From: Folioceros fuciformis
Lineage: Eukaryota
Length of the DNA: 64,000 nucleotides
Direction: 5' to 3'
Assembly: GCA_049999805.1 (NCBI GenBank)
Contig: JBNGIO010006037.1
Location: 62,001-126,000 of the forward strand
Both the position numbers and the translations under genes were made by a program. This document shows positions 3,001 to 54,735 of this stretch, piece by piece. A model generated the notes under the pieces. That model saw only the letters and a list, made by a program, of their open reading frames with translations. It made no database searches and was not told the origin of the DNA. How positions within the stretch are numbered: position 1 is the first letter of the stretch; each line of letters starts with the position of its first letter.

Positions 3001-6000
3001 TAATGGACAACAGTTTGTTCATTCTTCATTCTCTTACAGTCATAGAGGAATACGAGCACATCATAGAACTTCTTTCGACAATCTGCATTCTCATGCTTGC
3101 TAAATGTTGCACAGAGGACGGGAAGAACCTTCTCCAGAATGAGTTCTATCCGCATATCCTGTAGCATCTGTGATAACAGATCCAGTCCTTTAAGCTGAGC
3201 GGTTTCATCTCTGTGAACAAGAAGATGGGAGAAAATTGGTGCTATTGTGCTAGAAAGACTGCGGAGACACTGAGGATGTCTCAGAAGAATGTCAAGAGCA
3301 ATTGTCTGATACGCCCCATGCAAACGGGGCAACAGATCAATAACCATACTCACATACTGCTCGAGAAAGAAAGGGAAACGCAAGGTAGCTTTGTTCAGAA
3401 TATTTAGAAACCGTTCAAAGTCAGATGACTTAAAATGAGAATGAAGTAATCTCTTTAAAGAAGATTCTAACACATCGCCGTCCCTATTAGAATTCGTTTC
3501 ATTTCGTTGCTTCATGGCCATTCCCAGGAGTTCTGCTGACGCCTCATAAATGTCCTTTGACCTACTGCTGAGGTTGACAATCAAGGCCTGGTACATGTCC
3601 TCCTCTGTGCATGCTGCTTGGGGATCAAAGGGGGGGAGCCCACACGCCACAATGGTACCCAAAAGCTGTAGGCCAGCAGATTTTCGTATCAAGTTAGGCT
3701 TGTCATTGGTATTTGTGCTCCTCCCTCCAGCAACAATGTGGTCATAGACGATTGCAAAATCAATGTGGATGTAGTCCTTCCAGGTTCCCATGAATAGCCG
3801 AATAATAGATATATTTCCTCTAAGAACAGGTCTAGATTCATGCACTGCGACGCGCATCAAATGATTTACCAAGTTCGACCCAACTACAGCATCGGGGGGA
3901 CTTGGAAGTTCCCACTGTAGCAGGCAGACACACATTTCTCGCAGGATGTAGTGAAACCTCGTCCCACCAGTTTTTGAGGGGTCACGGATGATGGCCATTA
4001 CAAACGGACGGAACCATTCTGCAGCATATGGAGCAAAGACGGCACTGAACTTCGTCACCAGCTTCACAAGAAACAGACGAACATTGCTATGTGTGGCCAA
4101 ACTGTTCAACGATGAGTGTAATGCCCGCATCCACTCTGGCATCTGCTCACGGTTAGATCGATGGCTATCAAACTTTGTATGCAGGTGGTCTATTAACCTC
4201 GAAACAACTCCCATACTTGAATGCCTGTCAAAGTCATCATTCAAGCTATCCGTCCCTATCACCACCTGATTGCTGGGGGCACCTGGCTCTCCTTCACTAC
4301 GGATCGCTGCAGCCGTGCTTGGCTCCGGACCATCCTCTCTCCTGTTTTCCGTCAAAAACGTTCCTATGACTGCTGGTTCCTGGCTCAAGGCACTGCCAAT
4401 AATGTACTGTGAGGACAGTGTTCCAGATATGCTCTCTAGCCCGTTTGTTCCATGTTTTCTTCCACTCTGCAGACCTCTCACAGCCTCGAATGACGCTTCC
4501 AGGGAACTGGTTTCGACAGGAAGATTATCATACACCTTGCTGCAGTCCACTAAATGCTGCCATAATGAACCTAAGGTGCCACCCTCTTTGAACAAAAACA
4601 CTGAGAAGAACTTCTCGTTTTCTTGAGTCCGAGATATAATTGCAGCCAAACAGTTATAAGCAGCAACATGAAGATCCCGCCAAAGAGGCACGTTCTTTTC
4701 CAAAGGATCATTTTTGGCTCGTGCATCCTCATTAGCAAGTTTCATCAGTCTATTATTCGGAACCACAGGAGTAATTGTATCTCTTATTAGCGGTTCCTCA
4801 GCATGGATGAACAAGAGTTCCAAGATGTTATAATAACAGATTCTGACAATCAGGTACTCTTCCTCCTTTTCAGCATCCACACTGTTTATGCTGCCGATCT
4901 GCTTGCCAAGCTCATGTACAAAGGCCTGGATGTGTTCTGCATACCATCTTACAACCTGAGGAGGGGAGCAGGTACGCACAAGAGGAGGAAATACAACTGT
5001 TGCAATGGCTCTTCTCAAAGAAGTTGGTTGCCTTGAATCTGTCATTACACCATGGCACGAACTAAGAGCATCAACCTGTTTCCCATCTATGCCTGTTCCA
5101 AAGGAATGGAGTGCTTCGGACACTTTGTTTGCAGAAACTTTAGTGGGATACTGCAAAATTGGAAAGAGAACTTCCAGAAGCTCAAGCTTCTTGCTTGCAG
5201 AGATCCCACGCAGGATCCTGTCCAAAATATTTTCATACCTAGTTCTCTGATGGGACTGAGGAGGTATGTCTTTCTCACCAACCAGCAGATAGTCTGCAAC
5301 AATTCCGGTCAAGGACCTCGCTACTTGAAGACCGAAGTCTTGGCCAATACTGTAAGAGAGAAAGAGAGGGACAAGCACAAGACAGTCGCATTTCAGGGTG
5401 AGTATGGAATCTCTCTCCGGTGAGCTCGATTCACTCTCTTTTAGGTGCGATGCATTCAAAAAGGAGAAAAAAGCATCCACAATAAACTGGGAAGACGGTG
5501 GGCCCAGCACTACATTATGCTGACAGTCAAGGATCATGAGCTTTCGTATTATCTCGAGAAAAAACTGCTTCTCAGACAGTCCTGAAGACTGAAAACAGCA
5601 GGGTTCAAGATAACCAACTTGATTCACAAACTCCACCAAGAAGCTGTGCTTGGTAATATCCTCGGACGATTTCAAAACCTCATCTAGGAGTGCATCCAGA
5701 AGCATTCTCGATGTCACATTGGCAACAGCTGATTGGAGTATTTTAGGCAAAGAAACCTTGTAGGCAAATTTCACCTGCTGAATAATGATCTTTCTGAAAT
5801 TGACGTAGAAGATATTTCCTGCTGTCAATTTCCTATCTGATTGGGTTTGAACTATCCTGTCATCAAAGACCAGTTCCAACAGTCGTTGCACTCTGATTCC
5901 CAGAATGCGCGATACTGTAAGCATATCCAATGCAACAGGCTCCAGGGCAGGGGGGCAGTCTCTTTCCATCTCGAAAACTGATAGCATAAGCTGCTCTCCA

Positions 6001-9000
6001 ATTTTTTGTCTCTCAGCTTCGTCAAGAGATGAGGACAAAATCCGCGCTCGATGCATCAGCTGTAGTCCTTTCAGCAGATTCTTAAGGTCTGCCAAGCTTT
6101 CCTCTGTCTGCGCAGCAGCGTCAAGTGATAAGTGCCATGTTTCTCTCTTCATGTATTGCCTTAGGTGATCTATTACGCCTGACTTCATAGTAGGGGGTCC
6201 ATAACCCATTAGTTGAACAGCAGTGCTAGCCACCTCATCTTCGCTCTGAACGCTCAAAGATATGACACCCAGCTGCCTTGGTTTCACAAAAAGTAAAGCC
6301 AGGAAATGGTGGAAGTTGGGGTCACCTGTTGGAATTATTGGTTCTCCATTTGACAACATATCAGATTCAGATGAGAGCACTGACTTCTTCACTTCTAGTT
6401 CAAGCTTACAAACTTCCAGACAAAACTGTAAAAAGTACTTCACAGTGGAATATTTCAATCTCAAGTGAGTATCTCTTTCTGCTGGGGTAAGAGCCATGAT
6501 GACATGGTCATTTTGTCCACTCAGCATGCACTCAAGATATTTGGGTATCTCGGCAAGAGTTCCCATGCCCTGCAACCTTTCTCCGCCCACCAATTTCCCT
6601 TGTAGGGCCCACGTAAGCCAATGCCAAGACCTTGAGAGATCTCCGAGCCATGCTTTCACTTGAGAAAGTGAGGACATTGCCAGAAAAGATTCTGGAAGCC
6701 TTTCAACTACGTCAAATGAATCAAGCTTGACACGAGATTCGTCTTGTAGAACAAACCAACTTGCTGCTGAGCCACCTGCACAGCACAGAAGTTTGAAACT
6801 AAACGATCCACGAATTTCTGAACCAGAACCAGATAAAGGAGCGAGGGACAAGGACCAAGGCAGGGGCCTCGAATACTGTGGCACTATATTCTAGCTGATA
6901 CCTGGAAGAGACAGGCAGATCGAAGAAAATAGGTGCATACACCTCAAACGACACTTCTCTTGCGGTCTCCCTGTCTCTAGAAATAGCCATCCCAGGAAAT
7001 CATCGACGGTTTGAAAAAGGAGCCGGTGCTTGTTCTTTTCTTGCAGAGACGCGAGCGATAGCTTGATCAACTTTTCCAGGTAACCAAGTGCCCTGTTAAG
7101 CTGCTTCACCGTTCCTGTTCAAGTAAAGTCATGGTCAGACGGGCATGCAGCGAGCTTAACTATGACCATCAGATACATTGTCCCAGACTGCAAACTCACC
7201 TATCTGCTCACTGTCACTTTCAGCAAGGCGCAGGCTTTTAACAGCATAAAAAGTAAACTCAAGGATATGCCGCCCAACAATGCTATTGTTTTGCCTAAGC
7301 ACTGGATACATGCACTGTGCAGCCATAGCAGCACCCAGACGGTGGTAGGCATTTGGGTGGTCAAGGCGGTTGTATATGCGGCGCAGCATGGATGTAACAT
7401 TCACAAAGTTGTCAACCTCTACAGGAGAATGTCGAACAGACCACCGCAGGAACTCCCCAAAGCAGTTGGCACAAAATTCTCTGCACACCCAACGATCCGA
7501 TTGACCTTGGATGTTGCAACTGGTAGCTCAATAGGATGCAACATGAGGGATCCATGATGACAGACCTCAGGGAGCCATTCTCAGCTTGAACTAATCCATC
7601 TAGAATGCTGTCCAGAAGAGCCATTGCATCGGGGTTCTCTTTGTTGACATTGCTAGTCAGCCAGTGAATAAGCTGCTTACAGAACTCCTGAAAAATTTGC
7701 CGCGTAACCTAAACATTCAAAACCTTTAAGCGTCAGTATAACCAAAACAATCAGGACGTTCAAGAGCCCGTGTGTTCCACACATACTGCGAACTTATACT
7801 CTTGTCCGCAAGCTAAGTCCGTCCGGTCAAACTTGGCAATATCTTGAAAGGAACGGGCAGAGATGCATTACTGCTGTATGGAGTAGACATCTACCAGATC
7901 CACATCTGTGGCCAGCTGTAGAATGCTAGGGAACACCCTTCTATAAATCTTATCAAATGGCACCTGCAACAACCAAGCACACTTCAATCCATCGAGTAGT
8001 GTATTCAGAGAAATGTCTTCAACTGGATCGTACTAGCAAAAGACGTAGCTGGGTCGTACTCTCTCTGAGTTTGCAGCTCTCGTTTGCAAGGGGCCCTTTG
8101 CTGCACTCCCTAGCATCACGAGGCAAAGGGCATGAAGGAGTTCACAAGCAGTGATCTTTGTTCTTCTGTCACTAGAGAAAAGTCCAAGTTCCATCACTCT
8201 TGGTAGTAACGTATCTGCAGGACACGCACTCTGTGAGCAAACGTTCGATACTACAAATTGCATGCACTCGATCTCCTCTAAGCATGCACCAAGCACCCGT
8301 CACCATAACACGAATCTCTCCAGATCAGGGATTTTTCGCCCACCACCATTGATTCCTACCAGATTCTGAATGGAGGTGGCTTACCAAGCCAAATATCAGG
8401 TTTTACATCCTTGAATGGAAGGACATACTTCACACGATCACCAGAGTCCCAAGAAAGTCCACCAGGTCCGGCAATTTGCAGATGATTGGAACCTGTTACC
8501 AGGTAATGCGCAAATCTGCCAATGCGGCCAAGAAATTGCTGAACCCTGACTTGGATTTTCTGAAAAGGCTCCGGCTGCCAATCAATGACAAATGCTTGTA
8601 AGTACCAGCATGTAAGGTGCAACAAAATCTCTGCCCTCTTTCACTGAGAACGTTCTACCTCTATCCTCTGCTTCGCTGATTGCGCTGTTATGCTTTTGGT
8701 GCTCTTCAAAGAAGAACCTTGTTGTTTAGCTACATCAGGATCATCTGACGAGGATTCCACCTCAATTAAGTAGTCACCTAACCAGGGGACAATCCTGTGC
8801 AGGTAAAACTCGAACTCTCTTGGTCGCAACAACTGCAGCCTTTCCAGTGCATCAATAGCAACCATAGCCAGGGGGTTATATGTGTTGCGATGTAAAGGAA
8901 GAGTACCAATCTATCAGGCTGCATACTGCCCGCGAAAGAGACTACAATGCACTAGACCCTGTCTTGCTGATTCAGTCACCTTGACCACAAGCCTCACAGA

Positions 9001-12000
9001 TCTGCTTAGATACAACACCCAAAAGTAACCACAACACATACAACACATACAACACCCAAAAGTAACCACAAAAGGCAAAATAAAAGGATATCTTAGGCCA
9101 ATTCTCAAAGCATTGCGAAGTGGGACAACCATGGACGAGATCCCAATCAATTCAGGTGGTGAAGTTAGGCACAGACGCAGGCATGCAGCTAACAATTCGA
9201 GTTTGTATCGTCTGCTGGCTACTATGACTTCCTGCAAATACCGCTGAAATAATTCCTTGCAAAGCTGCCGGTCACTTGGTGGAGCAGGATACTTCAAAGC
9301 AGAACTTGAACTGAAAAAGCCCTCCTTGTCAGCAACACTTATAGTTACAGCTAGAAGCTTGTAGAAGCCGCTGATTAGAGGGTAATGACTAGAAAGTTCA
9401 ATCAAGCACTGGCTGAAGGTGTAAGTCCATTTCAAAAATAGAGGAGCGTTGCACCTGTCATCACAAGCCACACTGTTAAGCCAGAGAAAACAGTGTGGTC
9501 AGACTAACTGAGTGACTCGCCTATACCTAGAGAGAAGATCTTCAGTAAACTCCACCTACAGGCAGACAGCCAGAATTGTTAATACTACTTGACTTGATTG
9601 TACCTAGTTAAGCAAGACTTGTCAGACTCCACTTAGTTGTCCCCATAAACACTATACAGTTAGACATGTACCAGTTTCAGATACTTATGCATCTGGATAG
9701 CATCCTGTGGTTCTACCAGATCCATCTCTGCTTCTGGCTCCACATAACCACCTCCAGCTGCCTCTGCCGAGACACAATCAGAAACGTCAGAATCAGGATA
9801 CAATGAGCAAGAGCAACCCCACAAGTCTGCCGCTCCTCCATATTTAGGTTCAAAATGAAATGAGGGACAGCATAACCGATCCTCAGTTCTGTACCAAGAC
9901 CTAAAGTTCACGCAGCATCCAAGTGTACAGAGACGCCTCTTGGGCACCTTTACTTCTTTGACAGGAATTGTGGTTAACAGCAGACATGCCAAAGCCAAAA
10001 AACCAGACCTGATTCGCCCGCTTGAGATTCTATGCTTGTTGGCCTGACTCTGTACTTGATATTTAGCTCCATCATTAATTTGATAACACTTCGCATCATT
10101 GTGTCAAAGACTAATTCAATCACATAATTCCTGTTTCGACCAGGGTCTCTGATGCTTGAGAGGACAGGTTCCTCCACATCCTCTTCTGCATCTTCTTCTT
10201 TGTATTGTTCCGTTCTGTAGGTCAGTGGCAGTCCAACAGAGTCGAAGTCCATTACATGAGCCCAGAGGTCCACATAATGACGCCACAACTGATCCCCAAA
10301 CTCTACAGCTAGAGCTTCCCTAGGATCTGTGGCTCTTTCAAGCGAAGACCACACTGCACACAAAGTACCAACCATTACAAAAGAATGAAGACAAAGAGAG
10401 CTGCAATGGGGGAGCTTCCACAGCGGCTGGTATGCAGAGTTACTGACCAATATTGCTGAGGAATATTGTGAATATCGCCCCTTTGGAATAAAGAGCACCA
10501 AGCAGTCTTCGCAGGCTCAAATACACTGGTTTCTTCTGCTTCGGAAACAGACTAGGAAACTGGTAGAAGATGCTCCCGGTAATCTGCAAGCAACAAAGTT
10601 GGAGGAAAAGGTGTCAAGAAAGCAAGGTATTTTTTGTTTCCACATTGTTGTAGGAAAAATGGGGATACTGTGTCACAAATGATCACCAACCTCTGCAATA
10701 AAGGAAACCATGGAGTCTTCTATATCATCAAGTTCAACTATGATGTCAGCAAAAGATCCAATCAATGTGATAGAATATCCTAGAGAGCCATCCTGACCAT
10801 CCTTAGCCCTGCAGACTCGGATACATCATGTCACCATGGTCAGAACCGAAATGAAAGGGAACTAAGGATCCAGAACATATTCCGTGAAAGATGAAAGAAT
10901 TCTTTCTCCCAGCCAAGTAGACAGCAGTCAGCTGAAAAATCCGAACATGACAGAGTTGGAAGGGGTTGGCACCTGCGTGCAAAAGGTACAAGTCTGTGGA
11001 ATGCTTGTTTCAGGCTCTCCCTTCCGGAGTACTTCACAATTGCAGGTGACAACTTCCCCAGTGCACGAATTGCAACTGAAACAAGCTTGTGATGACTATC
11101 CTGAGACTGTAAGATCTCCAAAGTATCTTTCATGAAGCTCTGTCACAAATAACCAAGCAAGGATGCAGGAAGCACCATGAATTTTACGATGAGCACTAGG
11201 ATGTTTCCGAAATGAACTTCTCGACGATCAGACTTGGCATGGTGTAATCGGTCCATGGGAGGCTCTGGGGCATTACCTTATATATCTGAAGCGGATTGTG
11301 AATCCGCCCATCACCGGACGCTAAAGCGCTTCCAACCTGCAATTACACATTCAGTGAGTTGACCCAGCAACTCACAGTTTGTACTGCCATTGCTGCAAAA
11401 TGACAGACAGCATAGCCCATACATGGAATGGACTGGACACATACGGAAGTATGATTCTCTGAGCCACATTCCAAACAGGATACCAAGGGAGGCCCTCTAC
11501 CTCTGTAATAAATCCGTCAAATGCCAGGAGGGCTGCATCTCTCAGTCCTGCATTGTCATGCGTGCTGCAGAGGCAAACAGCAAGTGATATAGGAACAGTA
11601 TGTTAATTGTTAGCTACAAAACAATGCAGCAACTGACATAAGGAACCAATTTGGTATGGCAAGGGAACTAAATGGACTGATCACAAACCAGAGGAGGAAC
11701 ATGATTCCATACCAATAAGCCTGTAACCACGCCAAAATCGTGGTGCCATGTTCCAAAAGGCGCAGGCGAAAGAGAGCCGCATGCCGTGACAAAAGGTGAA
11801 GCGCAGCTGCGATCACAACGAAAGGGACCAGTTAGTGCACCCAGCCACCATCGGTGAGCAAATACCTGCTGACATCAAACTGGTGACATTTACCTTTCAC
11901 AACTTCATAGCGCTTCAAATCGTCTCGCACCAGCAGTAACTGCTGTAGGAAGCCGAAGATGAGCTTGGAATTCTCCACGGAGCCTGATTTCATTTCAAAG

Positions 12001-13265: not shown

Positions 13266-15200
13266 TTAATCGGGATCCGTCATGAGCTGCATCTTGGGGC
13301 CCATGCTGAGCAGTTCCTGATAAAAAAAGTTTGCCGGCGTAAGGAATTTCCAGCTCCACGACGCTCTTGGGCAAGCGGCAGCGTCGACACATGGGCTTTT
13401 TACCGATAGTCTTAAACATAATCCCTAGTGACCGTGAGACATGAGATGGCAGGTCTTGGAGTACAAAAAACCGTAAAAATCGGAGAGCACAAAGGTCTTC
13501 TCCCAGACCATCCGCGCGCCACCGTGGGTTATGAGGCACTCACGCTCCATGGTCTCGAACCGGACACATCCACATTCGACCCCGTTACGGACGGAGGCCA
13601 AACTCAATGTGAGCAGGCCTTGACACGGGTGGGCGGTTGAGGGGATTCCGTCGCCCTTCTGCTCTGCATTTGACGGTATCGGCCAATATGTGGTTCAGGC
13701 GTTGGTAGACGGAGGGGCTAACGGTGAGGAGGGCTTCTCGCATCTTGCCATCCTGGATGACCTCCAGCTCATGAAACCTCTGAATCCCTGTTTGCGGCAT
13801 CGCAACTCCCACATCTCGTAGACCAGGCTGTCAGGATGGTGGTGGCATCCTACCCAGCTCCTGTTCAGGAAGACCTTCCAAGATCTCCTAATTGTCTCGA
13901 TAGTTGCCAAGTTCAACGGTTCCACACCTAAATCGTCAAGGAAGCCATGGACCATGTCCTCCACAAAATGAGCAGACAAATCGCTGGCCAGAGCAAGCGT
14001 CTTCACCAACCCGTAGTTTTTACCCTCAGGATTCTCTGGAGGACAAACTCTAGACCAACGTGAGTAATTCAGATCACGGGCAATCGGACCAGCATTGTAT
14101 CTTCCGTCAGCCCTCATGTCACGAAGCTGGGAATGCACGCTCAACGGATTGATCCGTGACAGATCCCTTACTACTCCAGTCAACTTGGCACTCCTGACAC
14201 CGATAACCCTCCATTCCACTGACGAAAAATGCTCGTTGGAAACCTAACGTAATCAGCTTGGTATCTGTCAGTTTGGTAATCTTGTTTAAGATTAACCCCT
14301 TCTTCGAGCTCAAAGCCTTTTTGCATCCGCCTCCTCAGTTCAACCCTTATAACGGCTCATTTCATTCCAGAACTCCCGACTGATCAGATCCCCAGGCTGG
14401 TGCACACGCTTGTTTCTTAGGTCATCTTGTCATCGACTTCGCCCCGGCCAAGATAACAGCAACACAGCCTGTACACCACGTACGCGAGTACAAAAGACTT
14501 TGACTTATTGCAAACGTCCTCCTGATCAAAGAGCTTGCTCAGAGCATTCTGCGCCCTGGCAACTTCATCAGGTCCCATCTCATCCTTCACCTTGGAGCCG
14601 ATAAACTTGAACGAATCCGGCTCCAGTGCGCGGACGTTCACACTCTTGTTTTATCCTTCAAGAAGCGTGACATTTCTCGGTCTCCATGGCGTATGAACCC
14701 AAGAACCAGCTGCACCATCTCCGCATCAATATGTGCGGTACAAGGTATGAAAGCCTGGAGACATCCTTATCAGACGCAACATCAAGTGCTCGCATCGCGA
14801 CAACCACTGGAACCTGGTCAGGCACATCTCTCTCACGAACAGCGCACAATAGAGATTTACATGCATCCGAACCATCTGCAGCGCCTTCAGAAAAACAACG
14901 TCCTTGTACATGGCATTAGAGCCCGGGCACTCGCCGAGCGAGTAGGCAGTAAAGCCAGGCTTCCTGCGCATGCTCGCAACAGTGATGCGTTCCCTGAGAG
15001 AATGTTCCTCTGGAAACAACACTTTCTCTGCCCCCTTGATGATAAAATGGCCTCCCTCATCGAAAGCACAGTCCTCCTTAAGCTTGCCTACCCTGGAGCT
15101 CTCCTCTTTTAGAGCCACAAGATTACACCACGCAGACTTCACCAGAACAGGAATCTTGCCGAGAAGCACCGACGCAATTGTATTACTTCAGCAGCCCGCG
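13266..15200 (-). pseudogene. Degenerate NRP(D/E)2 (Pol IV/V second-largest subunit) paralog with frameshifts and a large internal deletion
   Basis: Colinear fragments in shifting frames: 'LGKIPVLVKSAWCNL', 'GGHFIIKGAEKV', 'YRLCCCYLGRGEVDD', 'ITLGFQRAF', 'LNYSRWSRVCPPENPEGKNYGLVKTLAL', 'VYQRLNHILADTVK', 'FETMERECLITHG', 'VVELEIPYAGKL', 'QELLSMG'. All align with the intact gene at 16369-21248. Confidence 0.88.
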
Positions 15201-15546: not shown

Positions 15547-15655
15547 TCCTCCCCTTCCATGTAGGAGCTTTCTTCTTCCCCTTCCATGCAGGAGCTTTCT
15601 TCCTCCCCTTCCATGTAAGAGCTTTCTTCCTCCCCTTCCATGTAGGAGCTTTTCT
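15547..15655. repeat. 27-bp tandem repeat, ~4 copies, plus a detached partial copy near 15434-15457
   Basis: Unit cctccccttccatgtaggagctttctt seen directly. Confidence 0.9.
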
Positions 15656-16368
15656 CGATGTTGTGGCCTCAACCCTACTATGACTACCAGCGAGAATGAT
15701 TGTCAAGGTAGGGGGACGAGCACGGATGAGTGGCAAGCCTGTTCACGACTCGTAATTAGGGCATTATAACAAGTTTACCATAAAGACAAGATGTAAATAC
15801 CTCACTAGGAACCGTGATGCCTGGAAGGGGATGTCAGAAAATGGAGTTTGACCGGTCAAGTATACAACCACATCTCTATAAAATCCTAGTCACCATGTGT
15901 CGGAGTCATAACCGGCAGGTGAGCAGTGCCTCGTGGCACTGACAGCCCGGTCATAGTGCAAACCCGGCCTAAGGTTTCTGTTGCCATGAGTGATGAGTTG
16001 CTGTCACGCTCCGAGTGCCGGCTCGGGCAGTGGAAGCTATACGCTATACGGCGGCTTATTAACGGCTGTCCGCCGCTTCCCGCGCTTCCTAAGCTTGCTC
16101 TCGAGCAGTCGAGAGTCGCCTGCCTGCGAGCAGCGTCGGGGAACCTCAGTCACGAAATTGACTATGCGCATGCCTGCTTTGGAGCGGAGGGAGTCGCCAA
16201 TTTCGCAAACAAGAGGTGTGGGTGGAGCTCTTCGTTTTTCTCTTCAATGTGCGGGCTCGTGCACTGCATGTGAGCTCAGGTGTTTGCTCCACTGTGGCAG
16301 GCATTGGGCGTAGCAGTGGAAGGTAGGTAATTGGAGCTCCCGCATCGACTTGCCTCAAGATTGGCGGC

Positions 16369-19300
16369 ATGGAGGTTGATAGAGAGGATTATTTAGAGCA
16401 GAGCTATGTGTTGAACGAGGACGTGGAGATGAAAGATGCCGGGATAGGAGGCGGCCGTGAAGCTGGCTTGTTGTCAGGTTGGTGAGAGTTTCCGCTGCTG
16501 CGCTGGGGACGCTGGTGTAGAAAGATTGAGCTGAGCTCGTGAAGGTTGCGTGATGGCGGAAGCGTGTCGTTGTAACAATTGTTGGCTTGTCATGCAGAGG
16601 GGGAAGGGGGGGCGGGTGCGGACAAAGACGCGTTCCCCGGACCTTCGAACACGAGGGTGGATGCTGGAGAGGGGCCAAGGGGACTGAACGATGTTTCTGA
16701 CGAGGTGCAGAGGATGCTGTGGACGATAGTGAAGGCGTTCTTCCAGGAAAAGACTCTGGTTGCGCACCAGGTTTCGGCGTTCAATGATTTTATGAACTTC
16801 GGGTTGCAGAGACTGATCGACGAAGCTCCTGTTCATGAGATACTTCCGGATCACGATCCCGGTGCAGTGCGTCATGGAAACCTTCCGAGGCAGGCCCGGG
16901 TTAGGTTTGGGAAGGTGCATGTTGTGAAGCCAAACACTTCGATGAAGCCTCCCAAGCCGGTTGTCAATTTTGGAGTGCATGATGCAGACAAGAAGGCTGC
17001 AGATGGCGACAAGGAGACNNNNNNNNNNNNNNNNNNNNNNNNNNNNNNNNNNNNNNNNNNNNNNNNNNNNNNNNNNNNNNNNNNNNNNNNNNNNNNNNNN
17101 NNNNNNNNNNNNNNNNNNGGGCGGCCTGGAGCAACAGAGATGCAGCAGTTGATAATGGTTGGGGTGAACCCGCCCGTGAGGAAAATGGTTGGGGGGTTCC
17201 AGCTGGTGACACAGCCATGCCACATAGCTGGGCTTCCCCCGTGAAGGGAAAGTCTAAGTCACCTGCTGGAGATGAAGCTGGAGCTTTATTGGGTGAAGCA
17301 GGAGATAATCAGTCCAATGCTGGAGGAACCGATCAGAAAGGTGGATGGGAGGAGACGAAGTGGGGTGACCTCAATGAGAAAGGATCTAACAAGGAGAAAC
17401 GTAAAGGGGCGTTTGATTTTGAAGGAGACGAGGTAAATTACGGTCTGAAAGCAGGGAAAGCTCATGGAGATGAAGTAGTAGACTATGGCAAAGCTTGGTG
17501 TGGCAATGAGGAAGTAGACTACGGCAGCAGGGCTTCCAAAGGGAGTAAACTGCCTGCTGAAGACGATGAAGTTGCCTTTGGCATCAGGAGCTCTAAGGGC
17601 AAACTGCGAGCTGGAAAGGACAGTGATGGAGACAACGAAGAGGATCCCCAAGATCGAGGCCAGTTGATCGCCAACGCTAAAGGGAATGGCAAGCTTGATG
17701 CAGAAGAGCAGACAGCGAAAGCAAAGGGAAGAACTAAAGGGGCCGCTGCAGACAGAAAGAAAAAGGGGAAAGCTCCTGAAGGTGACCAATTGGATGGAGT
17801 GCAGGAAGCAACAGAGAAAAGAGCGAATGGTGGTAAGAAGCGTAAGTCTCGGAAGGAGACTGACGCCGAGGAAGAGGAAGAAGATGTTCGCACCGTTCTT
17901 TACCCCAGGGAGGCTCGACTGCGGAACTTAACGTATGCTGCTGATATCTATGTTGACATGACCGTTGAAGTTTATGTTGCTCCTTTGGCTGGAACGACCT
18001 CTAAAGCCGGCAAGTCAGGGTCCAGAGACAAGCCATCCAGCTCCAACGACGTCTCTGATGCGCGACCTGCAGAAGAGGAGGAGAAAATTTTGGAAGTAAA
18101 GCGTCTCCCTCGTGAGCATCTGGGGAAGATACCTGTGATGGTCAAATCACAATTTTGCAATCTTCATGGCCTGGATAGCAAGGTGCTAGCAAAGGAGGAC
18201 GATGCTTATGACATTGGAGGGTACTTCATTATTAAAGGTGCCGAAAAGGTGGTTTTTGCACAGGAGCAGCCTTTTATACGCCGGCTTACGCTCTCTAGGA
18301 ACAAAGACGGCTTAACTGCAACTTCTGGTGGAGTTTGCAAGGGAACTAACTTGGTGTTTAGAAACAGAGTCTATCTGAGGAGAAAAGAATTAAAAAAAGG
18401 ATCTACAGAGGCAAGTGGACCCCTTGTATGCCAGGTTCGTTTGAGAAAGGTTGTACAACCCATCCCTTTGGTGATTGTGTTGCGAGCACTTGGGGTCGCT
18501 ACAGACAGAGATGTGCTTCAAATTGTATGTGTTGATCTTGAGGATAGCCAAATGGTGGAATTGGCACTCCCATTTATTCAACATGCAGATAAGGAAATGA
18601 CTGACTTCCTTGAAAGTGAAGGGAAGAATCCTAGTAAGGCACGTGAGAAAAAGAATGCCTTGAACTACCTCTTCTCGAAGCTAAAAAACAAGCCAAAGGA
18701 CTATAATCAGGGTGTTACAGAAGTTCTGGGCTTACTTTTCCAGGAACAGGTCATCAACTCGGAGGTCATGCAAGAACAGAGATCTGCACCGGAACCAGAG
18801 CCCCTAAATGACGTCGCAAAGGCCCTGCTGTTGGGGTACATGGCGCACAAACTTTGTTGCTGCTACTTGGGACGTTTGGAAGTGGATGACAGAGATAACT
18901 TCAGGAACAAACGTCTGGATTCAGCAGGCCATCTGCTAAGTCTGGAGTTCCGGAACCTTATGGTGAGGTTCAAGAACGAGATGAAGAGGAGGATTCAAAA
19001 GTCTTTGGCCAAAGCAACCGTCAACTTCAGGCTAGATACATCCATTTTCACCTTAGGTTTCCAGAGGGCATTCTCTACGGGAAATTGGAGCGCTCCAGGT
19101 GACATGAACAGCAAGTGCACAGGAGTAATAGCAGATCTGCCACGGACAAATCCCATGGGTGCATATTGCCAATTGAGAAAGACAAGGACGCAGGTAAATT
19201 ACGTTGCCAAAGCAACAAATGCCAGGTACTTGAACTACTCACATTGGGGCCGAGTGTGTAGCTTAGAGACCCCTGACGGTGAGAACTGCGGCTTGGTGAA

Positions 19301-21248
19301 GAGTCTTGCACTGACGAGCTTTGTCAGTGTTGAGTCGTCGGAAAAAATTGTTCACGACTTTCTCGCGGAAGTGGGGATGACAAAGGCCAACTCGGTCGGA
19401 ACTGATCATGAGTTGATGCTGATGTCAGATAAGGTTTTCCTTAATGGCAAGTGGGTTGGTTGTCATGCTGACCCGGACGATCTTGTCAGGGAAATGCGCA
19501 GCCTGCGCCGGCAGCAGTTCCTGAACAGCGAGGTGGAAATTGTTCAAGACAAGAAAATGAGGGAGGTTCGTATATATACAGATGCAGGCAGACCACTACG
19601 ACCGTTGCTGATTGTAGAGGACCAAAGGCTTAGGTTGAACGTCAAGGACATTGAGCACCTGAAATCTGGCCCTGCTGGTGGGCTGACCTATCTCTTGGAG
19701 CGAGGGGTGCTGGAGTTCCTTGGGGTGGAGGAGGAAGAAGGGGCGCACATCGCAGCTGATACTGCACAGTTGGAGAGTGCCCAGGGAAGTCTTGATGCCC
19801 TCCCTTACACACATTGTGAGATCCATGCCCATCTAACGTATGGCCTAGGTGCTTCCGGAATCCCGTTCGCAAACTACAATCAGTCTTCGCGGGATATGCA
19901 GCAGGCGCAGAAACACGGCAAGCAAGCCGTCGGGAATTATGCCACCAATATGAGAGCAAGATCAGACACTACTGCTCATGAGCTATTTTATCCTCAAACT
20001 CAGTTAGTGAAAACGGGAGCTATGAGCTGCCTGCAGATGCCTGAGCTGGCGAATGGTCAAACAGCGATTGTGGCAATTGCCTGCTACAGTGGATACAATC
20101 AGGAGGACTCTCTTATTATGAACCAGTCTTCCATAGATCGAGGACTATTCCGTTCACTTCACTACAAGACCCACCGGAGCATACTCCGGAGAGGTACAGG
20201 TGAACAGTTTGGCAAGCCCGACCCCGAGAACAGTATAGGTACGAAGAATACCCAGGCGTACGAAAAGCTGGATACGGATGGTTTTCCGCATGTAGGTGCA
20301 AACTTGGCAGTTGGTGACATTGTGGTTGGGAAGTTGAGGGCAGACAGGACGGGCATAGGGATGCTCACAGATGCCAGTGAGAAGGCCAAAGTCTCCAATA
20401 GAGGTCGGGTGGATCAAGTTATCCTGACTACTGAGGAGGATGGAACGTACATTGCCAAGGTGCGGGTGAGGCTAGCTCGGGCACCTCAGATAGGGGACAA
20501 GTTCAGCAGCATGCATGGGCAGAAGGGTGTGATCGGCATGATTTTGCCCCAGGAGGACATGCCTTTCACCAGAGAAGGCATCGTCCCCGACATCATCGTC
20601 AACCCGCACGCCTTCCCTACCAGGCAGACTCTTGGGCAGTTGATGGAGAATTTGCTAGGTAAAGTCGTGGCATGTCCTGTTAAGGAGGGCAAGCGGAAGC
20701 TCATGAGGAGCGATGCCACTCCCTTCACAAGTCTTACAGCAGATGCCATCGCAGAGGAACTCCACCAGTCAGGATATGGACGCTGGGCCAAGGAATGCAT
20801 GTATAATGGCTTCACTGGAGAGAAGATGGCGGCGCTGATCAACATTGGGCCAACATTCTACCAGAGACTGACGCACATGGTGAGCGATAAGGTTAAGTAT
20901 CGAGGCAGAGGGTTCGTGCACCCTCTCACTCGTCAGCCCGTGAAGGAGCGCGACAGACACGGTGGGGTCAAGTTTGGAGAAATGGAGCGGGACTGTATGA
21001 TCGCCCACGGCGCAGCCATGACTCTGCGAGAGAGAACCTTCGTCCTCTCCGATTTCTACAGGATATACTACTGCAAGGGCTGCGAGGTTCTGGCAAGTAT
21101 GGACAACATCACCAAAATCCCCAGCTGCCGCATCTGCCGTCAAGTAAAGCACGTAGTTCAGCTGGAAATCCCTTACGCCTGCAAGCTCCTCCATCAGGAA
21201 CTCCTGAGCATGGGTATCTGTATAAGACTCATAACAGAGCCCTGTTAA
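16369..21248 (+). CDS. NRPD2: RNA polymerase IV/V second-largest subunit (NRP(D/E)2-like) with a large N-terminal insertion; predicted exons 16369-16477 and 16598-21248
   Basis: RPB2-family motifs: 'LYPREARLRNLTY', 'GGYFIIKGAEKV', metal-B 'GYNQEDS', Zn ribbon and 'IPYACKLLHQELLSM'. Pol IV/V-type variants: 'GDKFSSMHGQKG', 'NPHAFPTRQT', 'GGVKFGEMERDC', 'QKH', 'ETPDGENCGLVK'. Phase-1 intron 16478-16597 inferred. A gap at 17019-17118 interrupts the ORF. Confidence 0.92.
17019..17118. other. Assembly gap (100 N placeholder) inside the NRP(D/E)2 insertion
   Basis: N run; the flanking reading frames join only if the true gap length is 2 mod 3. Confidence 0.95.
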
Positions 21249-21357
21249 CCTCCAACTGCCTACCCTCTCCAGCCTCCCAATGGCGAGAATGGTTGGTTTT
21301 CAACACTGAAATCGGCACAAACAGTAGGACAACAAAAGTGAAATCTAGTGTGAAGAA

Positions 21358-21717
21358 TTAGGAACTTTGGGGCGGCCCCTCGGATCCTCCTCCGCCCTGC
21401 CCTTGCAGGCGCTGGTCGGCGATGGCATTGCTGTCCGTCTCCAAGTTGTCCACGGATTTGGCGACTGCCTGCAGATGGCTTTTGAAAACGTGCACCCTCT
21501 TGGTCAGAGCGTCTATCTCCTCGCTGCACCTGTCCACAGTCCCTCGCACCAAGGCCACCCTTCCCAGAAGATTCTCCACCCTCTGGCCCACGAAAGTCTC
21601 AAGCTGCGTCACTCTGGCCTCCAGGTCCTGCAGGGGAGACACCGCCCTGGCGGAAGATAGGTCTTGCCCAGCAGGTGGAGTTGTCGGAGGAGAGTCGCCC
21701 GGCACCGCAGAATCCAT
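21358..21717 (-). CDS. Hypothetical ~119-aa coiled-coil protein
   Basis: ATG at 21717; heptad-like 'LQDLEARVTQLETFVGQRVENLLGRVALVRGTVDRCSEEIDALTKRV'; GC-rich coding-like composition; no family recognised. Confidence 0.4.
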   Translation of the reverse strand: MDSAVPGDSPPTTPPAGQDLSSARAVSPLQDLEARVTQLETFVGQRVENLLGRVALVRGTVDRCSEEIDALTKRVHVFKSHLQAVAKSVDNLETDSNAIADQRLQGQGGGGSEGPPQSS

Positions 21718-22062: not shown

Positions 22063-22461
22063 NNNNNNNNNNNNNNNNNNNNNNNNNNNNNNNNNNNNNN
22101 NNNNNNNNNNNNNNNNNNNNNNNNNNNNNNNNNNNNNNNNNNNNNNNNNNNNNNNNNNNNNNNNNNNNNNNNNNNNNNNNNNNNNNNNNNNNNNNNNNNN
22201 NNNNNNNNNNNNNNNNNNNNNNNNNNNNNNNNNNNNNNNNNNNNNNNNNNNNNNNNNNNNNNNNNNNNNNNNNNNNNNNNNNNNNNNNNNNNNNNNNNNN
22301 NNNNNNNNNNNNNNNNNNNNNNNNNNNNNNNNNNNNNNNNNNNNNNNNNNNNNNNNNNNNNNNNNNNNNNNNNNNNNNNNNNNNNNNNNNNNNNNNNNNN
22401 NNNNNNNNNNNNNNNNNNNNNNNNNNNNNNNNNNNNNNNNNNNNNNNNNNNNNNNNNNNNN
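22063..22461. other. Assembly gap (399 N)
   Basis: N run. Confidence 0.98.
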
Positions 22462-22540
22462 NGCTGGGGTACCGTGGCGGAATTCGGAGTGGTGGGATGG
22501 GGAGCTGTGATGGGGGCTAGGTAGCTGGGTCGTGAGCGGG

Positions 22541-24404
22541 ATGGCATCCGTGGAGAAGATGACGGAAGGGGCCTCCATTGCGGTCAGTGTGGAGAAAGTG
22601 AGCGCCTTCACCCCGGCGAGCGTGCCGACAGGTCCGACCCCGGGTCCGGGTCTGGGGCCGGGGCCGGGTCCGGCCGGCATTCTGGTGCACCAGGATGGCC
22701 CGCTGTCTCTCACGGACGTGGAGCTAGCGCTCCAGGAGACCAAGGAGCAGAGGGAGCACCGCATCCGCCAGCTCTTCGCCATCTTCGACACCAGCAAGTC
22801 GGGGTACCTGGACCACCGCCACATTGAGGATGTGTTCCGCACGCTCTCCATCCCCGCGCACAACAAGTACGCCAAGGAGCTGCTCAGCGTGTGCGATTCC
22901 GACCAGGACGGCAAGGTGGACTACGACGAGTTCCGCAAGTACATGGACAACAAGGAGCTGGAGCTGTACCAAATCTTCCAAGAGATCGACGTGAAGCATA
23001 ACGGCACAATTGAGCCGGATGAGCTGCGGCAGGCGCTTTTGAGAGCAGGTACATTCGTGCATGCCTGCCTTTTGGCTCTCGTGTGGCGTGGGTTGAGGCC
23101 AGGGGGTGCGCTTAGTTTAAGATCTCAGGCTGTGTGCAGGGATTCCCATCCAGGACGACCAGCTTGCCATGTTTGTGGACCATGTTGACAAGGATAACAA
23201 CGGGATCATCACCTTCGAGGAGTGGAGGGACTTTTTGCTTTTGCTGCCCAATGTGAAAACTCTTTCCAACATATATCATTACTGGGAGAAGATTTGTTTG
23301 GTTGATATTGGGGAGCAAGCCGTTATTCCAGAGGGGATAAGTCGCCAACTGGATGCGTACAAGTATTTCTTTGCCGGTGGAGTTGCTGGTGCTGTTTCAC
23401 GAACTGCAACAGCACCCTTGGACAGGCTTAAGGTGCTGCTGCAAGTGCAAACCCATGACCAAGGCCGTGGTGTGATGTCTGGGCTAGCAAAGATTTACAA
23501 GGATAGTGGCTTTGCGGGATTTTTCCGGGGGAATGGGCTCAATGTATTTAAAGTAGCCCCTGAGTCCGCCATCAAGTTCTATGCCTATGAACTGCTCAAG
23601 GAGTATGTGGTCAAGGTGGACGGTAGTGGAACCAAGGAAGAAATTGGAACTTGGGGACGTTTTGTCGCTGGAGGAGCCGCTGGAGCGATTGCTCAAACTG
23701 TAATTTATCCACTGGATGTAGTCAAGACCAGGCTTCAAACCTTTCGTGCCTCCGATGGCACAGCCCCGCCTCTGATGCGCTTGTCTCGTGATATTTGGGT
23801 CCATGAAGGTCCCAGAGCCATGTACAGGGGTCTTGTCCCATCTCTACTTGGCATGATACCGTATGCCGGCATCGACTTGGCTGCGTACGAGACATTTAAA
23901 GATTTGTCACGCCGATTTTTGCCGAAGGACACAGGTGATCCTCCCTCCTACTGCTCTGTGCCCCGACATCGCCAACCATGTACACCCCTCTAACTGTTTC
24001 TAGTGGACCAATTGCAGAGCCAGGCCCTCTGGTGCAGCTCGCTTGCGGGACTGTTTCAGGAGCCCTCGGAGCAACGTGCGTGTACCCTCTGCAGCTCGTC
24101 AGGACAAGGTGACATTTCTGATAGTTTTGTTTTCCATGTGATGATATCAACCTTGGGCAGGCAGAGACAGCTTTGTCTGACTGACTGTGCCTGCAGGCTG
24201 CAAGCCGAACCTATGAACTCTCCAAATCGGTACAAGGGTATGGGTGACTGCTTCCGACGCACATTCAAGAAAGAGGGTGTACGGGGCTTCTACAACGGGC
24301 TTGCCCCAAATCTGCTGAAGGTCGCGCCTGCTGCAAGCATCACTTATCTTGTGTACGAGGCTATGAAGAAACAGTTCTCACTGAATCCCAATTGTTCTAA
24401 CTGA
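22541..24404 (+). CDS. APC: Ca2+-binding mitochondrial ATP-Mg/Pi carrier (APC/SCaMC type), 4 exons
   Basis: EF-hands ([48 protein letters not shown]) followed by carrier signatures '[10 protein letters not shown]', '[10 protein letters not shown]', '[10 protein letters not shown]'. Exons approx. 22541-23048, 23140-23934, 24018-24108, 24197-24404. Confidence 0.95.
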
Positions 24405-30225: not shown

Positions 30226-30699
30226 CAGGAGGTTTCTCTTGTGCGCTCTCTTGTGCGCAGCGGTGTTATTCGAGAAGATGTCCACACCTGGCAGTAAGTG
30301 ATGTTGCGCAACTGCCTGGTGGACATGCACGCAGAATGTTTCGAGCAGAGAGATGGAGTGGAGGATTTCGAAGAAGGCCTGGCCATGAAGAAGGGGGACG
30401 CTGCTTGCCGGGTGTCCCAGGAAGGGCTTCGACTTACACGACGCAAATCATCCAGAACCAACATACAGTACATGTGCAGAGGAGTTAAAAAGCAGAAATG
30501 GGAAAAGAAGGAACGTGTTGAAATGCGAGTACCGTATGTTCTCTCTAAAGCGGAAAGAGAACGATCTCGGGCCCGAATAAGAGGAAGCCAGTGGGAGGAA
30601 ACCAGGTGGCATTTTGGCAGCCCGTGGCTTGCTCACTTGTTCGCTGCTGCAGCTGTGGCTGAAGGGCAGGGCGCGGTGGGAAGAGCGAGCGCTACAGGC

Positions 30700-49891: not shown

Positions 49892-54735
<4,844 letters not shown>

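What the first reader, a model, noticed from the sequence alone, without database searches (positions are those of the whole stretch)
16934..17897. Pol IV/V second subunit carrying a large insertion with WG/GW Argonaute-hook-like motifs
Seen: between 'RFGKVHVVKP' and 'LYPREARLRN' there are at least ~290 extra low-complexity G/D/E/K-rich codons. Reading the main frame back from the listed ATG (17217) to the gap gives AAWSNRDAAVDNGWGEPAREENGWGVPAGDTAMPHSWAS...QKGGWEETKWGD...KAWCG. That is two NGWG repeats, one GW, one WG and three further spaced Trp, while the gap hides the start of the array. Established: these two motifs are only about 10-15 residues apart in ordinary RPB2/NRPD2 proteins, and WG/GW motifs in disordered context bind Argonaute; in RdDM they sit on the NRPE1 CTD and SPT5L. 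Inference: this may be a specialised second subunit with its own AGO-recruiting platform, i.e. an alternative Pol V (or new polymerase) architecture. I know of no description of this, but cannot search the literature.
Basis: partly seen in the sequence, partly recalled or inferred. Interest (0 to 1): 0.9.

Follow-up and report, generated by a model that had tools for sequence, protein, structure and literature searches.

The report
Trp-rich disordered insert in NRPD2/E2
A plant gene for the second subunit of the silencing polymerases Pol IV/V carries a long, transcribed, floppy insertion whose first part is a conserved tryptophan-rich cluster that could dock Argonaute proteins, though binding remains untested.

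Summary
Window 16369-21248 (+) encodes an almost intronless second-largest RNA polymerase subunit that falls inside the plant NRPD2/E2 (Pol IV/V) clade. Between RFGKVHVVKP (16903-16932) and LYPREARLRN (17898-17927) lie 28 + 259 readable codons plus a 100-N gap; 104 of 115 relatives have 14-23 residues there. The frame is open (0 of 20000 shuffles are stop-free). A 4789-nt contig of a run that also holds a spliced form of this locus runs from the insert into the polymerase core. The seven Trp are as described, and one more GW lies in the gap. Trp is enriched, but its adjacency to Gly is not beyond chance. The only close relative (63% identical) has a homologous insert with 4 of its 5 Trp aligned. 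Seven liverwort NRPD2/E2-like proteins carry a 159-285-residue insert at the same loop, without detectable sequence homology; Trp is enriched only marginally in one of them. So the insert is real and not unique to this genome, while the Trp cluster is lineage-specific. Argonaute docking is plausible (about 0.35-0.4) but untested. Five literature searches found no description. A decayed inverted copy of the gene lies just upstream.

The parts
16216..16300 (+). 5'UTR intron (GT..AG, 85 nt)
   Evidence: A contig of run X1 joins 16213 to 16299 (skips 85; GT..AG with the cut 2 places further right). DNA-run contigs X2 record 4 and X3 record 10 run straight through. Splice letters read.
16369..16477 (+). 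First coding exon (ATG 16369), inferred
   Evidence: Read from the sequence: 109 nt, then GT at 16478. Not bridged by any contig.
16478..16597 (+). Inferred CDS intron (GT..AG); joins exon 1 to the frame that opens at 16600
   Evidence: Sequence and frame only. Unconfirmed.
16598..21248 (+). Main exon: NRPD2/E2-type second subunit up to the stop codon, interrupted only by the assembly gap
   Evidence: Open frames 16576..17244 and 16983..21248. Seven Rpb2 Pfam domains. NRPD2/E2 clade. X1 contig of 4789 nt covers 17119-21500 with 0 differences.
16903..16932 (+). Anchor A, RFGKVHVVKP (last conserved strand before the loop)
16933..17018 (+). Insert, part before the gap (28 codons, NTSMKPPKPVV...DGDKE)
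   Evidence: X1 record 2 covers 16606-17010. N[TI]S[MV]KP is shared with P0003.
17019..17118 (.). Assembly gap, 100 N, true length unknown (must be 2 mod 3 to keep the frame)
   Evidence: No contig of X1, X2 or X3 bridges it. X2 record 7 has 26 further letters before 17119 that read in frame without a stop and hold one more GW (hand translation).
17119..17897 (+). Insert, part after the gap (259 codons), low complexity: G 15%, A 13%, K 12%, E 11%, D 10%
   Evidence: No Pfam family. No hit among 1.84 billion representatives.
17127..17498 (+). Trp cluster: 7 W, including two GWG, one GW and one WG. The first 90 residues are 62% W/G/N/S/A/D and 4% L/I/M/Y/C
   Evidence: 4 of the 5 W of P0003 align here.
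17151..17210 (+). Two tandem 30-nt units, DNGWGEPARE and ENGWGVPAGD
   Evidence: the repeat finder family D3, 76% identity. Coordinates.
17427..17582 (+). Reiterated acidic-aromatic motif (D/E)(D/E)V-x-(Y/F)-G: DEVNYG, EEVDYG, DEVAFG; also DEVVDYG
   Evidence: (family D1). P0003 has DEVDFG at the aligned place.
17829..17855 (+). Basic patch GGKKRKSRK (looks like a nuclear localisation signal), followed by an acidic run
   Evidence: GGKKRKSR is identical in P0003; it is the only block BLASTP finds. Coordinates. The NLS reading is inference.
17898..17927 (+). Anchor B, LYPREARLRN (conserved protrusion strand)
   Evidence: The alignment to solved NRPD2/E2 chains starts here (8hil_B about residue 103, 7eu0_B about 109).
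17976..18104 (+). Second, smaller loop expansion (43 residues, S/K/E-rich, no Trp)
20091..20111 (+). GYNQEDS motif, intact
   Evidence: [quoted passage not shown]
20493..20528 (+). GDKFSSMHGQKG motif, intact
   Evidence: Nearly invariant in alignment A1.

Best explanation
Anatomy (confidence about 0.9). This is the NRPD2/E2-type second-largest subunit of the plant silencing polymerases. It carries a real, in-frame, intrinsically disordered insertion of at least 296 residues in a surface loop of the protrusion domain, at the place where ordinary second subunits have about 15 residues. Mechanism (confidence about 0.35-0.4, inferred). The insert acts as a flexible arm with three parts. (1) The N-terminal third is a Trp cluster of at least eight Trp, five of them in GW/WG context, partly made by a local 30-nt duplication. 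It most likely serves as a low-valency Argonaute hook: Trp side chains in a small-residue, hydrophobic-poor context would enter the Trp pockets of an AGO4-type PIWI domain. That would hold one or two siRNA-loaded Argonautes on the polymerase body, next to the upstream-DNA channel that the protrusion lines. (2) The middle holds reiterated acidic-aromatic (D/E)EV-x-(Y/F)-G motifs of unknown partner. (3) A K/E/D-rich spacer ends in a conserved basic patch, GGKKRKSRK, which probably acts as a nuclear localisation signal. Shown: the anatomy, the contig continuity, homology with one relative, Trp enrichment and Trp conservation. Inferred: disorder (from composition only), Argonaute binding, NLS function and the spatial argument.
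For: Identity: seven Rpb2 domains; best solved relatives are NRPD2/E2 chains at 794 and 789 bits against 751 bits or less for Pol II; NRPD2/E2 clade with SH-aLRT 100. Coding and retained: no stop in 259 codons, against 0 of 20000 stop-free shuffles. Run X1 holds a GT..AG-spliced contig of this locus that the DNA runs lack, and its 4789-nt contig runs from 17119 through the insert into the core without a joint. P0003 has the same architecture on a single 5126-nt contig. Insert homology with P0003: z 6.6, 0 of 500 shuffles; 78 of 189 aligned residues identical; 4 of 5 Trp aligned, which 35 of 1000 shuffles reach. Trp enrichment: 4.9e-5 against the protein's own core, 0.019 against other ORFs of the window, and at most 2 Trp in 417 low-hydrophobicity windows elsewhere; P0003 also enriched, 0.011. 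Context fits the published preference (W, G, N, S, A, D favoured; L, I, M, Y, C disfavoured; PMC2910046, passages): 62% and 4% here, 53% and 6% in P0003. The motif count meets the numerical rule of at least 3 used in PMC10991848 (passages), which also states that two or three Trp suffice for one AGO and that hooks have moved among Pol V-complex proteins, with SPT5L arising only in the angiosperm ancestor. The protrusion restrains upstream dsDNA in the Pol V elongation complex (PMC10229537, passages).
Against: Gly adjacency of Trp is not above chance (4 of 7, p=0.10), and G-rich low-complexity segments are a known source of false AGO-hook calls (PMC2910046). Five GW/WG motifs are few beside the tens found in NRPE1, SPT5L and SPT6L. 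The Trp lie in fixed, conserved short motifs (GG-x-W-x-x-T-x-W-G-[DE]) rather than in fluid repeats, which would equally suit another partner. Liverwort inserts at the same loop show no Trp enrichment in 6 of 7 proteins (P 0.18-0.91), a marginal one in the seventh (P=0.042), and a single GW/WG in all seven, so a long insert here does not need a hook. In angiosperms NRPD2/E2 serves both Pol IV and Pol V, so a hook on it would also sit on Pol IV, where none is expected. No Wsearch score, no structure prediction and no Argonaute of this organism was available. Only one close relative exists for the conservation test.
Confidence: 0.4

Rival explanations
1. The insert is a functional disordered arm but not an Argonaute hook. 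Its selected features would be the basic NLS-like patch, the acidic-aromatic repeats and the conserved Trp motifs, which bind some other partner (an import, assembly or chromatin factor) or drive condensate formation. On this reading the GW look is a by-product of Gly richness.
For: GGKKRKSR is the best conserved block between the window and P0003. Liverwort inserts at the same loop have an RRSKRPKL-type basic patch near their end but almost no GW/WG. G adjacency is not significant. The Trp lie in fixed motifs. PMC10991848 (passages) itself notes that hook-like regions may attract other proteins or form condensates. IWR1-type RDM4/DMS4 is needed for Pol V function in Arabidopsis (PMC4412961, passages), so import or assembly is a live issue for these enzymes.
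Against: Trp is rare in such segments elsewhere in the window (at most 2 per 125 aa), yet here it is enriched and 4 of 5 are conserved. The flanking composition matches the AGO-hook preference. The protein belongs to the one pathway where chromatin-bound AGO hooks are the rule.
Confidence: 0.4
2. Neutral low-complexity expansion. A solvent-exposed loop of the protrusion tolerates insertions, and replication slippage and local duplication have inflated it with no function beyond not disturbing the enzyme.
For: The loop also varies elsewhere: 43 residues in a lycophyte protein and 42-45 in two angiosperm entries. Liverworts have independent-looking inserts with no detectable homology to this one (z 1.6 or less). 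Degenerate internal repeats are present. There is no homologue in 1.84 billion representatives.
Against: The frame has stayed open over 259 codons here and about 245 in P0003. The insert is recognisably homologous at 63% whole-protein identity (z 6.6). Specific motifs (GWG...GW, GGxWxxTxWG, DEVxYG, GGKKRKSR) are kept while the rest drifts.
Confidence: 0.15
3. The segment is not part of the mature protein: an unspliced intron or exitron, or an assembly artefact around the gap.
For: A 100-N gap sits inside it, and no contig of any run bridges the gap. The frame across the gap is unverified.
Against: A 4789-nt contig of the run that holds spliced sequence of this locus is colinear from 17119 into the core, and another covers 16606-17010. 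Two DNA runs agree with the window on both sides. P0003 shows the same architecture without a gap. The open frame is far beyond chance.
Confidence: 0.03

Closest known systems
AGO-hook (GW/WG) platform of the NRPE1 C-terminal domain (Pol V largest subunit)
   Same: Trp motifs in a disordered, small/polar-residue context on a Pol V-type polymerase subunit, partly generated by local repeat duplication.
   Different: It sits on the second subunit, inside a protrusion loop rather than in a C-terminal tail. It has about 5 GW/WG motifs rather than tens. The motifs are positionally conserved with the one relative. Binding is untested.
SPT5L/KTF1 and SPT6L C-terminal AGO hooks
   Same: Further examples showing that hooks are spread over several Pol V-complex proteins and have shifted during plant evolution (PMC10991848 and PMC10229537, passages).
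   Different: Those are elongation factors with long C-terminal arrays (42 GW/WG in KTF1). Here the carrier is a core catalytic subunit. SPT5L is reported to have arisen in the angiosperm ancestor, so it would be absent from this lineage (not checked here).
Liverwort NRPD2/E2-like proteins with a long insert at the same loop (Marchantia paleacea, Riccia sorocarpa, R. fluitans and Calypogeia fissa database entries)
   Same: Same clade of subunit, same insertion point, similar length (159-285 residues) and charged low-complexity make-up, with a basic patch near the end.
   Different: No detectable sequence homology to the window's insert (z 1.6 or less). No Trp enrichment in 6 of 7 and one GW/WG in total. 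A single origin is neither shown nor rejected (p-AU 0.48).
GW182/TNRC6 Argonaute-binding domain
   Same: A few conserved Trp in a disordered region can suffice to bind one Argonaute (as cited in PMC10991848, passages).
   Different: Cytoplasmic animal miRNA effector, unrelated protein. The comparison is by mechanism only.

Membership tests
NRPD2/NRPE2 (second-largest subunit of plant Pol IV/V) | Full Rpb2 domain set | tested here: met
   PF00562, PF04563, PF04560, PF04566, PF04561, PF04565 and PF04567 all above their cut-offs.
NRPD2/NRPE2 (second-largest subunit of plant Pol IV/V) | Groups with NRPD2/E2 rather than NRPB2 in a phylogeny | tested here: met
   38-row tree: 23-row NRPD2/E2 clade with SH-aLRT 100 and stem 1.16; WIN+P0003 at 100. 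The 20-row tree gives the same. Quick searches only. The position inside the clade is unresolved.
NRPD2/NRPE2 (second-largest subunit of plant Pol IV/V) | Closest solved structures are NRPD2/E2 chains | tested here: met
   8hil_B 794 bits and 7eu0_B 789 bits, against 751 bits for the best Pol II chain. The margin is modest.
NRPD2/NRPE2 (second-largest subunit of plant Pol IV/V) | Catalytic-centre motifs intact | tested here: met
   GYNQEDS and GDKFSSMHGQKG are present. The roles of these motifs are partly recalled.
NRPD2/NRPE2 (second-largest subunit of plant Pol IV/V) | Assembles with NRPD1 and/or NRPE1 | not testable with these tools
   No genome is held for the window.
AGO-hook (GW/WG) Argonaute-binding platform | At least 3 Trp motifs in GW/WG context | tested here: met
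   Two GWG, one GW and one WG after the gap, plus GGWQG in the 26 letters reaching into the gap (hand translation).
AGO-hook (GW/WG) Argonaute-binding platform | Each motif scores 6 or more in Wsearch (plant matrix), the criterion used in PMC10991848 | not testable with these tools
   Wsearch and its matrix are not available here.
AGO-hook (GW/WG) Argonaute-binding platform | Disordered context rich in G/N/S/A/D and poor in L/I/M/Y/C | tested here: met
   62% and 4% in residues 1-90, against 30% and 23% in the core.
AGO-hook (GW/WG) Argonaute-binding platform | Trp and GW content above what composition gives | tested here: inconclusive
   Trp is enriched (4.9e-5, 0.019 or 3.4e-4, depending on the background). 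Gly adjacency is not (p=0.10).
AGO-hook (GW/WG) Argonaute-binding platform | Trp kept in relatives while the rest drifts | tested here: inconclusive
   4 of 5 Trp of P0003 align, against 41% identity overall; 35 of 1000 shuffles reach this. Only one close relative was found. The liverwort inserts are not homologous.
AGO-hook (GW/WG) Argonaute-binding platform | Trp-dependent binding of an Argonaute | not testable with these tools
   No Argonaute of this organism was in hand; no complex prediction was attempted.
Liverwort-type protrusion-loop insert of NRPD2/E2 | Same insertion point | tested here: met
   MAFFT alignment and anchor spacing.
Liverwort-type protrusion-loop insert of NRPD2/E2 | Sequence homology of the insert | tested here: not met
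   Window or P0003 against Marchantia, Riccia and Calypogeia: z from -0.8 to 1.6. Liverworts among themselves: z 4.5-25.
Liverwort-type protrusion-loop insert of NRPD2/E2 | Insert bearers form one clade | tested here: inconclusive
   Not recovered in the free tree and not rejected: p-AU 0.48, lnL difference 0.71.

The most novel reading that the evidence does not exclude
In this non-seed-plant lineage the core catalytic subunit shared by Pol IV and Pol V carries its own Argonaute hook in the protrusion, beside the upstream DNA. Argonaute-docking platforms would then have migrated between the largest subunit, elongation factors and the second subunit during land-plant evolution. If a single NRPD2/E2 serves both enzymes, Argonaute would also be tethered to the siRNA-producing polymerase, an arrangement not known in angiosperms.
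Probability: 0.3. Interest if true: 0.75.

Novelty: new variant of a known kind. Interest (0 to 1): 0.5.

Why it matters
How siRNA-loaded Argonautes are held at Pol V is central to RNA-directed DNA methylation. The known hooks sit on NRPE1, SPT5L and SPT6L, and one of them (SPT5L) is reported to be an angiosperm innovation. A hook-like Trp cluster built into the second subunit would show that early-diverging land plants solved the tethering problem differently. It would place Argonaute at a defined spot on the enzyme (protrusion, upstream DNA side) and give a compact target, about 130 residues, for W-to-A tests. Even if it is not a hook, long disordered inserts in the same protrusion loop of NRPD2/E2 in liverworts and in this lineage were not mentioned in the passages I read of six papers on Pol IV/V or AGO hooks. 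They deserve attention in alignments and gene models, where they could be mistaken for introns.

Tried and rejected
Whole genome: not held, so NRPE1, SPT6L, AGO and paralogue checks were impossible.
- Sequencing runs: no RNA holder is listed on record; X1 is only guessed to be RNA.
- In X1 nothing covers 16455-16605, and no contig of X1, X2 or X3 bridges 17019-17118. These blanks are not used as evidence, and the CDS intron 16478-16597 stays inferred.
- Word-index search with residues 1-330: none of 7989 candidates reached E 0.001.
- phmmer of the post-gap insert against 1,835,955,588 representatives: 0 hits.
- Search with P0003 residues 1-420: no further close relative among 1123 hits.
- Pfam on the insert and on the antisense ORF 17289-17927: nothing credible.
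- Tandem Repeats Finder on 16300-18200: 0 arrays; only degenerate repeats were found.
Disorder therefore rests on composition, and the place of the loop on the enzyme rests on alignment to solved chains, Pfam's domain 1 and recall.
- AU test on the 38-row set did not finish; it was rerun on 20 rows with LG+G4.
- Rejected readings: an intron (open frame, colinear contig); a separate antisense gene (no family); homology with the liverwort inserts, which corrected my earlier impression, from the MAFFT alignment, of shared Trp and basic motifs.
- Literature: five searches found no description of an insert or AGO hook in NRPD2/E2. I read passages of PMC11194755, PMC4476159, PMC10533338, PMC10991848, PMC10229537 and 10.64898/2026.03.25.714125. 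Supplements are closed; supplementary fig. S2 of PMC4476159 (NRPD2/E2 tree) and fig. S4 of PMC10991848 (hook surveys) could bear on novelty. Wang and Ma 2015 was not in reach.
Full report
**What is there.** The window around the finding holds one long plus-strand gene. An ATG at 16369 opens a 109-nt exon. A GT at 16478 and an AG ending at 16597 would join it to a frame that is open from 16600 to the 100-N gap at 17019-17118. A second frame runs from 17121 to the stop at 21248. The 1375-residue post-gap translation matches all seven Rpb2 Pfam domains, with domain 6 at 9.1e-116. Among solved structures its best matches are the Pol IV/V second subunits: 8hil_B at 794 bits and 7eu0_B at 789 bits, against 751 bits for the best Pol II chain. 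In a 38-row likelihood tree it sits with a database protein, P0003, at SH-aLRT 100. Both sit inside a 23-row NRPD2/E2 clade with support 100 and a stem of 1.16 substitutions per site, well apart from plant NRPB2. A 20-row tree agrees. Its place among the lycophyte, moss, liverwort and fern-plus-seed-plant NRPD2/E2 branches is unresolved. The catalytic-centre motifs GYNQEDS and GDKFSSMHGQKG are intact.

**The observation.** RFGKVHVVKP is at 16903-16932 and LYPREARLRN at 17898-17927. Between them lie 28 codons, the gap and 259 codons. I examined 121 relatives, and 115 had both anchors. Of these, 104 have 14-23 residues between the anchors (76 have exactly 15), 3 have 42-45 and 8 have 159-285. 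It has seven Trp: two GWG, one GW, one WG, and AAW, SWA and AWC. A DNA contig of run X2 reaches 26 letters into the gap from its 3' side. By my hand translation these read in frame as GNGEGGWQG, which gives one more GW.

**Is it coding and kept in the message?** The 777-nt frame has no stop, whereas none of 20000 shuffles of the same bases is stop-free (mean 13.8 stops); the other two plus-strand frames have 7 and 31 stops. Run X1 is on record only as a guessed RNA run. It holds a contig of this locus that skips 85 bases with GT..AG ends in the 5' leader, and two DNA runs read straight through that place, so X1 contains spliced sequence. X1's 4789-nt contig is colinear with the window from 17119 to beyond 21500 with no difference and no joint. 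Another X1 contig covers 16606-17010. P0003 (1401 aa, 63% identical) comes from a single 5126-nt contig of another source and has the same architecture without a gap. I take the insert as exonic and translated. The frame across the gap (true length 2 mod 3) and the small CDS intron remain unverified.

**Is the Trp pattern more than chance?**
- Trp makes up 2.7% of the insert.
- The protein's own core has 0.36% (P=4.9e-5).
- Ten other long ORFs of the window have 1.03% (P=0.019 for the whole insert; 3.4e-4 for the 125-residue cluster, a window chosen after the fact).
- The 417 low-hydrophobicity 125-residue windows in three other ORFs hold at most 2 Trp; the insert holds 7.
- Gly next to Trp (4 of 7) is what 15% Gly would give (shuffle p=0.10).
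- The first 90 residues are 62% W/G/N/S/A/D and 4% L/I/M/Y/C, against 30% and 23% in the core.

That composition is the preference reported for Argonaute-binding WG/GW domains. The same paper warns that Gly-rich low-complexity segments give false positives (PMC2910046, passages).

**Relatives.** The insert finds nothing by phmmer among 1.84 billion representative proteins and has no Pfam family. Two word-index searches found only one close relative, P0003. The two inserts are homologous:
- local score z=6.6, reached by 0 of 500 shuffles;
- 78 of 189 aligned positions identical;
- 4 of P0003's 5 Trp aligned with Trp here, which 35 of 1000 shuffles reach.

The kept blocks are DNGWGEPAREENGWG against RSGWGDDDVPRPEVRGWA, GGWEETKWGD against GLWNKTAWGE, DEVNYGL against DEVDFGL, and an identical GGKKRKSR. 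P0003's insert is also Trp-enriched (P=0.011).

Seven liverwort NRPD2/E2-like proteins (Marchantia paleacea, two Riccia species, Calypogeia fissa) carry 159-285 extra residues at exactly the same loop. A lycophyte protein has a short insert there. A moss protein, a fern protein and the gymnosperm proteins examined do not have one; the gymnosperm proteins have N-terminal acidic extensions instead. The liverwort inserts are homologous to each other (z 4.5-25) but not detectably to the window's or P0003's (z -0.8 to 1.6). They hold one GW/WG in total, and Trp is not enriched in six of the seven (P 0.18-0.91; Marchantia 0.042). Holding all insert bearers together as one clade costs 0.71 log-likelihood units (p-AU 0.48). 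One origin is therefore neither shown nor excluded.

**Internal anatomy.**
- A Trp cluster (17127-17498) includes two tandem 30-nt units coding DNGWGEPARE and ENGWGVPAGD.
- An acidic-aromatic motif, (D/E)(D/E)V-x-(Y/F)-G, is reiterated across 17427-17582.
- A K/E/D-rich stretch (44% charged residues) ends in GGKKRKSRK at 17829-17855, followed by an acidic run.

The alignment to solved NRPD2/E2 chains begins right after the insert, near residue 103 of 8hil_B and 109 of 7eu0_B. The flanks belong to Pfam's Rpb2 domain 1, which I recall as the protrusion. [quoted passage not shown]

**How it most likely works.** I commit to a flexible arm on the protrusion whose Trp cluster is a small Argonaute hook, and I put this at about 0.35-0.4. 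Points in favour:
- the pathway;
- the enrichment and conservation of Trp in a suitable context;
- a motif count above the three used as a threshold;
- the published statement that two or three Trp suffice for one Argonaute;
- the published picture that hooks are spread over, and have moved between, Pol V-complex proteins, with SPT5L arising only in the angiosperm ancestor (PMC10991848, passages).

Points against:
- the non-significant Gly adjacency;
- the small number of motifs;
- their fixed, motif-like conservation, which would equally suit another partner;
- the hook-free liverwort inserts;
- the fact that NRPD2/E2 is shared with Pol IV in angiosperms.

An about equally likely rival (0.4) is a functional arm with other partners: an NLS-like patch for import or assembly, or condensate formation. 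A neutral expansion gets 0.15, and an intron or artefact 0.03.

**Novelty.** Five full-text searches and passages from six papers found no mention of an insert or hook in NRPD2/E2. The six papers include the two evolutionary surveys of Pol IV/V subunits and the survey of AGO-hook proteins. The hook proteins listed for the Pol V complex are NRPE1, SPT5L, SPT6L, NERD and SDE3. Supplements could not be opened. I rate the finding a new variant of a known kind, with moderate interest.

**In passing.** A decayed, inverted copy of the same gene lies head to head upstream (about 15181 to 13272, minus strand). It has stops and frameshifts and lacks residues about 816-1255. A DNA-PKcs homologue fills the first 10 kb.

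Noticed in passing
window 13272-15181 (-): A decayed inverted copy of the NRPD2/E2-like gene lies head to head with the intact one. Pfam finds Rpb2 domain 3 (8.7e-11). tblastn matches residues 334-639, 591-796, 804-815 and 1281-1374 of the intact protein at 30-40% identity, with in-frame stops. Residues about 816-1255 are missing, and no trace of the N-terminus or the insert was found. It is about as far from the window's gene as from P0003, so it is probably an old pseudogene.
   Followed up: partly
window 15547-15652: A 27-nt tandem repeat, 3.9 copies at 92% match, lies in the spacer between the pseudogene and the gene. On the minus strand its frames read TWKGRKKAP, SSYMEGEEE and KLLHGRGGR repeats.
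   Followed up: partly
window 1230-9498 (-), runs off the window start: A DNA-PKcs homologue: DNAPKcs_CC3 2.6e-50 and CC5 2e-60 in one 1358-codon open frame (2817-6890), with DNA-PKcs_N 1e-26 at 8917-9498. DNA-PKcs in non-flowering green plants is already described (PMC10419180, seen in the search listing only).
   Followed up: partly
window 16598-21248 (+) and 2817-6890 (-): Exons are unusually long: the polymerase gene has a single exon of about 4.65 kb after one small inferred intron, and DNA-PKcs has a 4-kb exon.
   Followed up: no
window 17976-18104 (+): A second, smaller expansion (43 residues, S/K/E-rich, no Trp) sits in the next protrusion loop of the same protein. P0003 and the liverwort proteins also have extra residues there.
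   Followed up: no
proteins P0006, P0008, P0014 (gymnosperm NRPD2/E2-like), P0123 (moss): Gymnosperm NRPD2/E2-like proteins carry N-terminal acidic repeat extensions of 170-200 residues, and the moss protein one of about 99 residues, instead of the loop insert. None is Trp-enriched. Disordered add-ons to this subunit therefore recur in several lineages.
   Followed up: partly
window 554-653 and 22063-22462: Two more assembly gaps (100 and 400 N). The second lies between the polymerase gene's 3' end and an EF-hand plus mitochondrial-carrier gene (22511-23990, +).
   Followed up: no
window 30298-31800 (+), 37242-38996 (-), 50859-53946 (-), 61462-62343 (-): Neighbouring genes by Pfam: a transketolase-type pyrimidine-binding plus C-terminal domain protein, a pyridoxal-dependent decarboxylase, a JmjN plus zf-C5HC2 protein, and an AAA ATPase. 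There is no Rfam family and no tRNA in the window.
   Followed up: no
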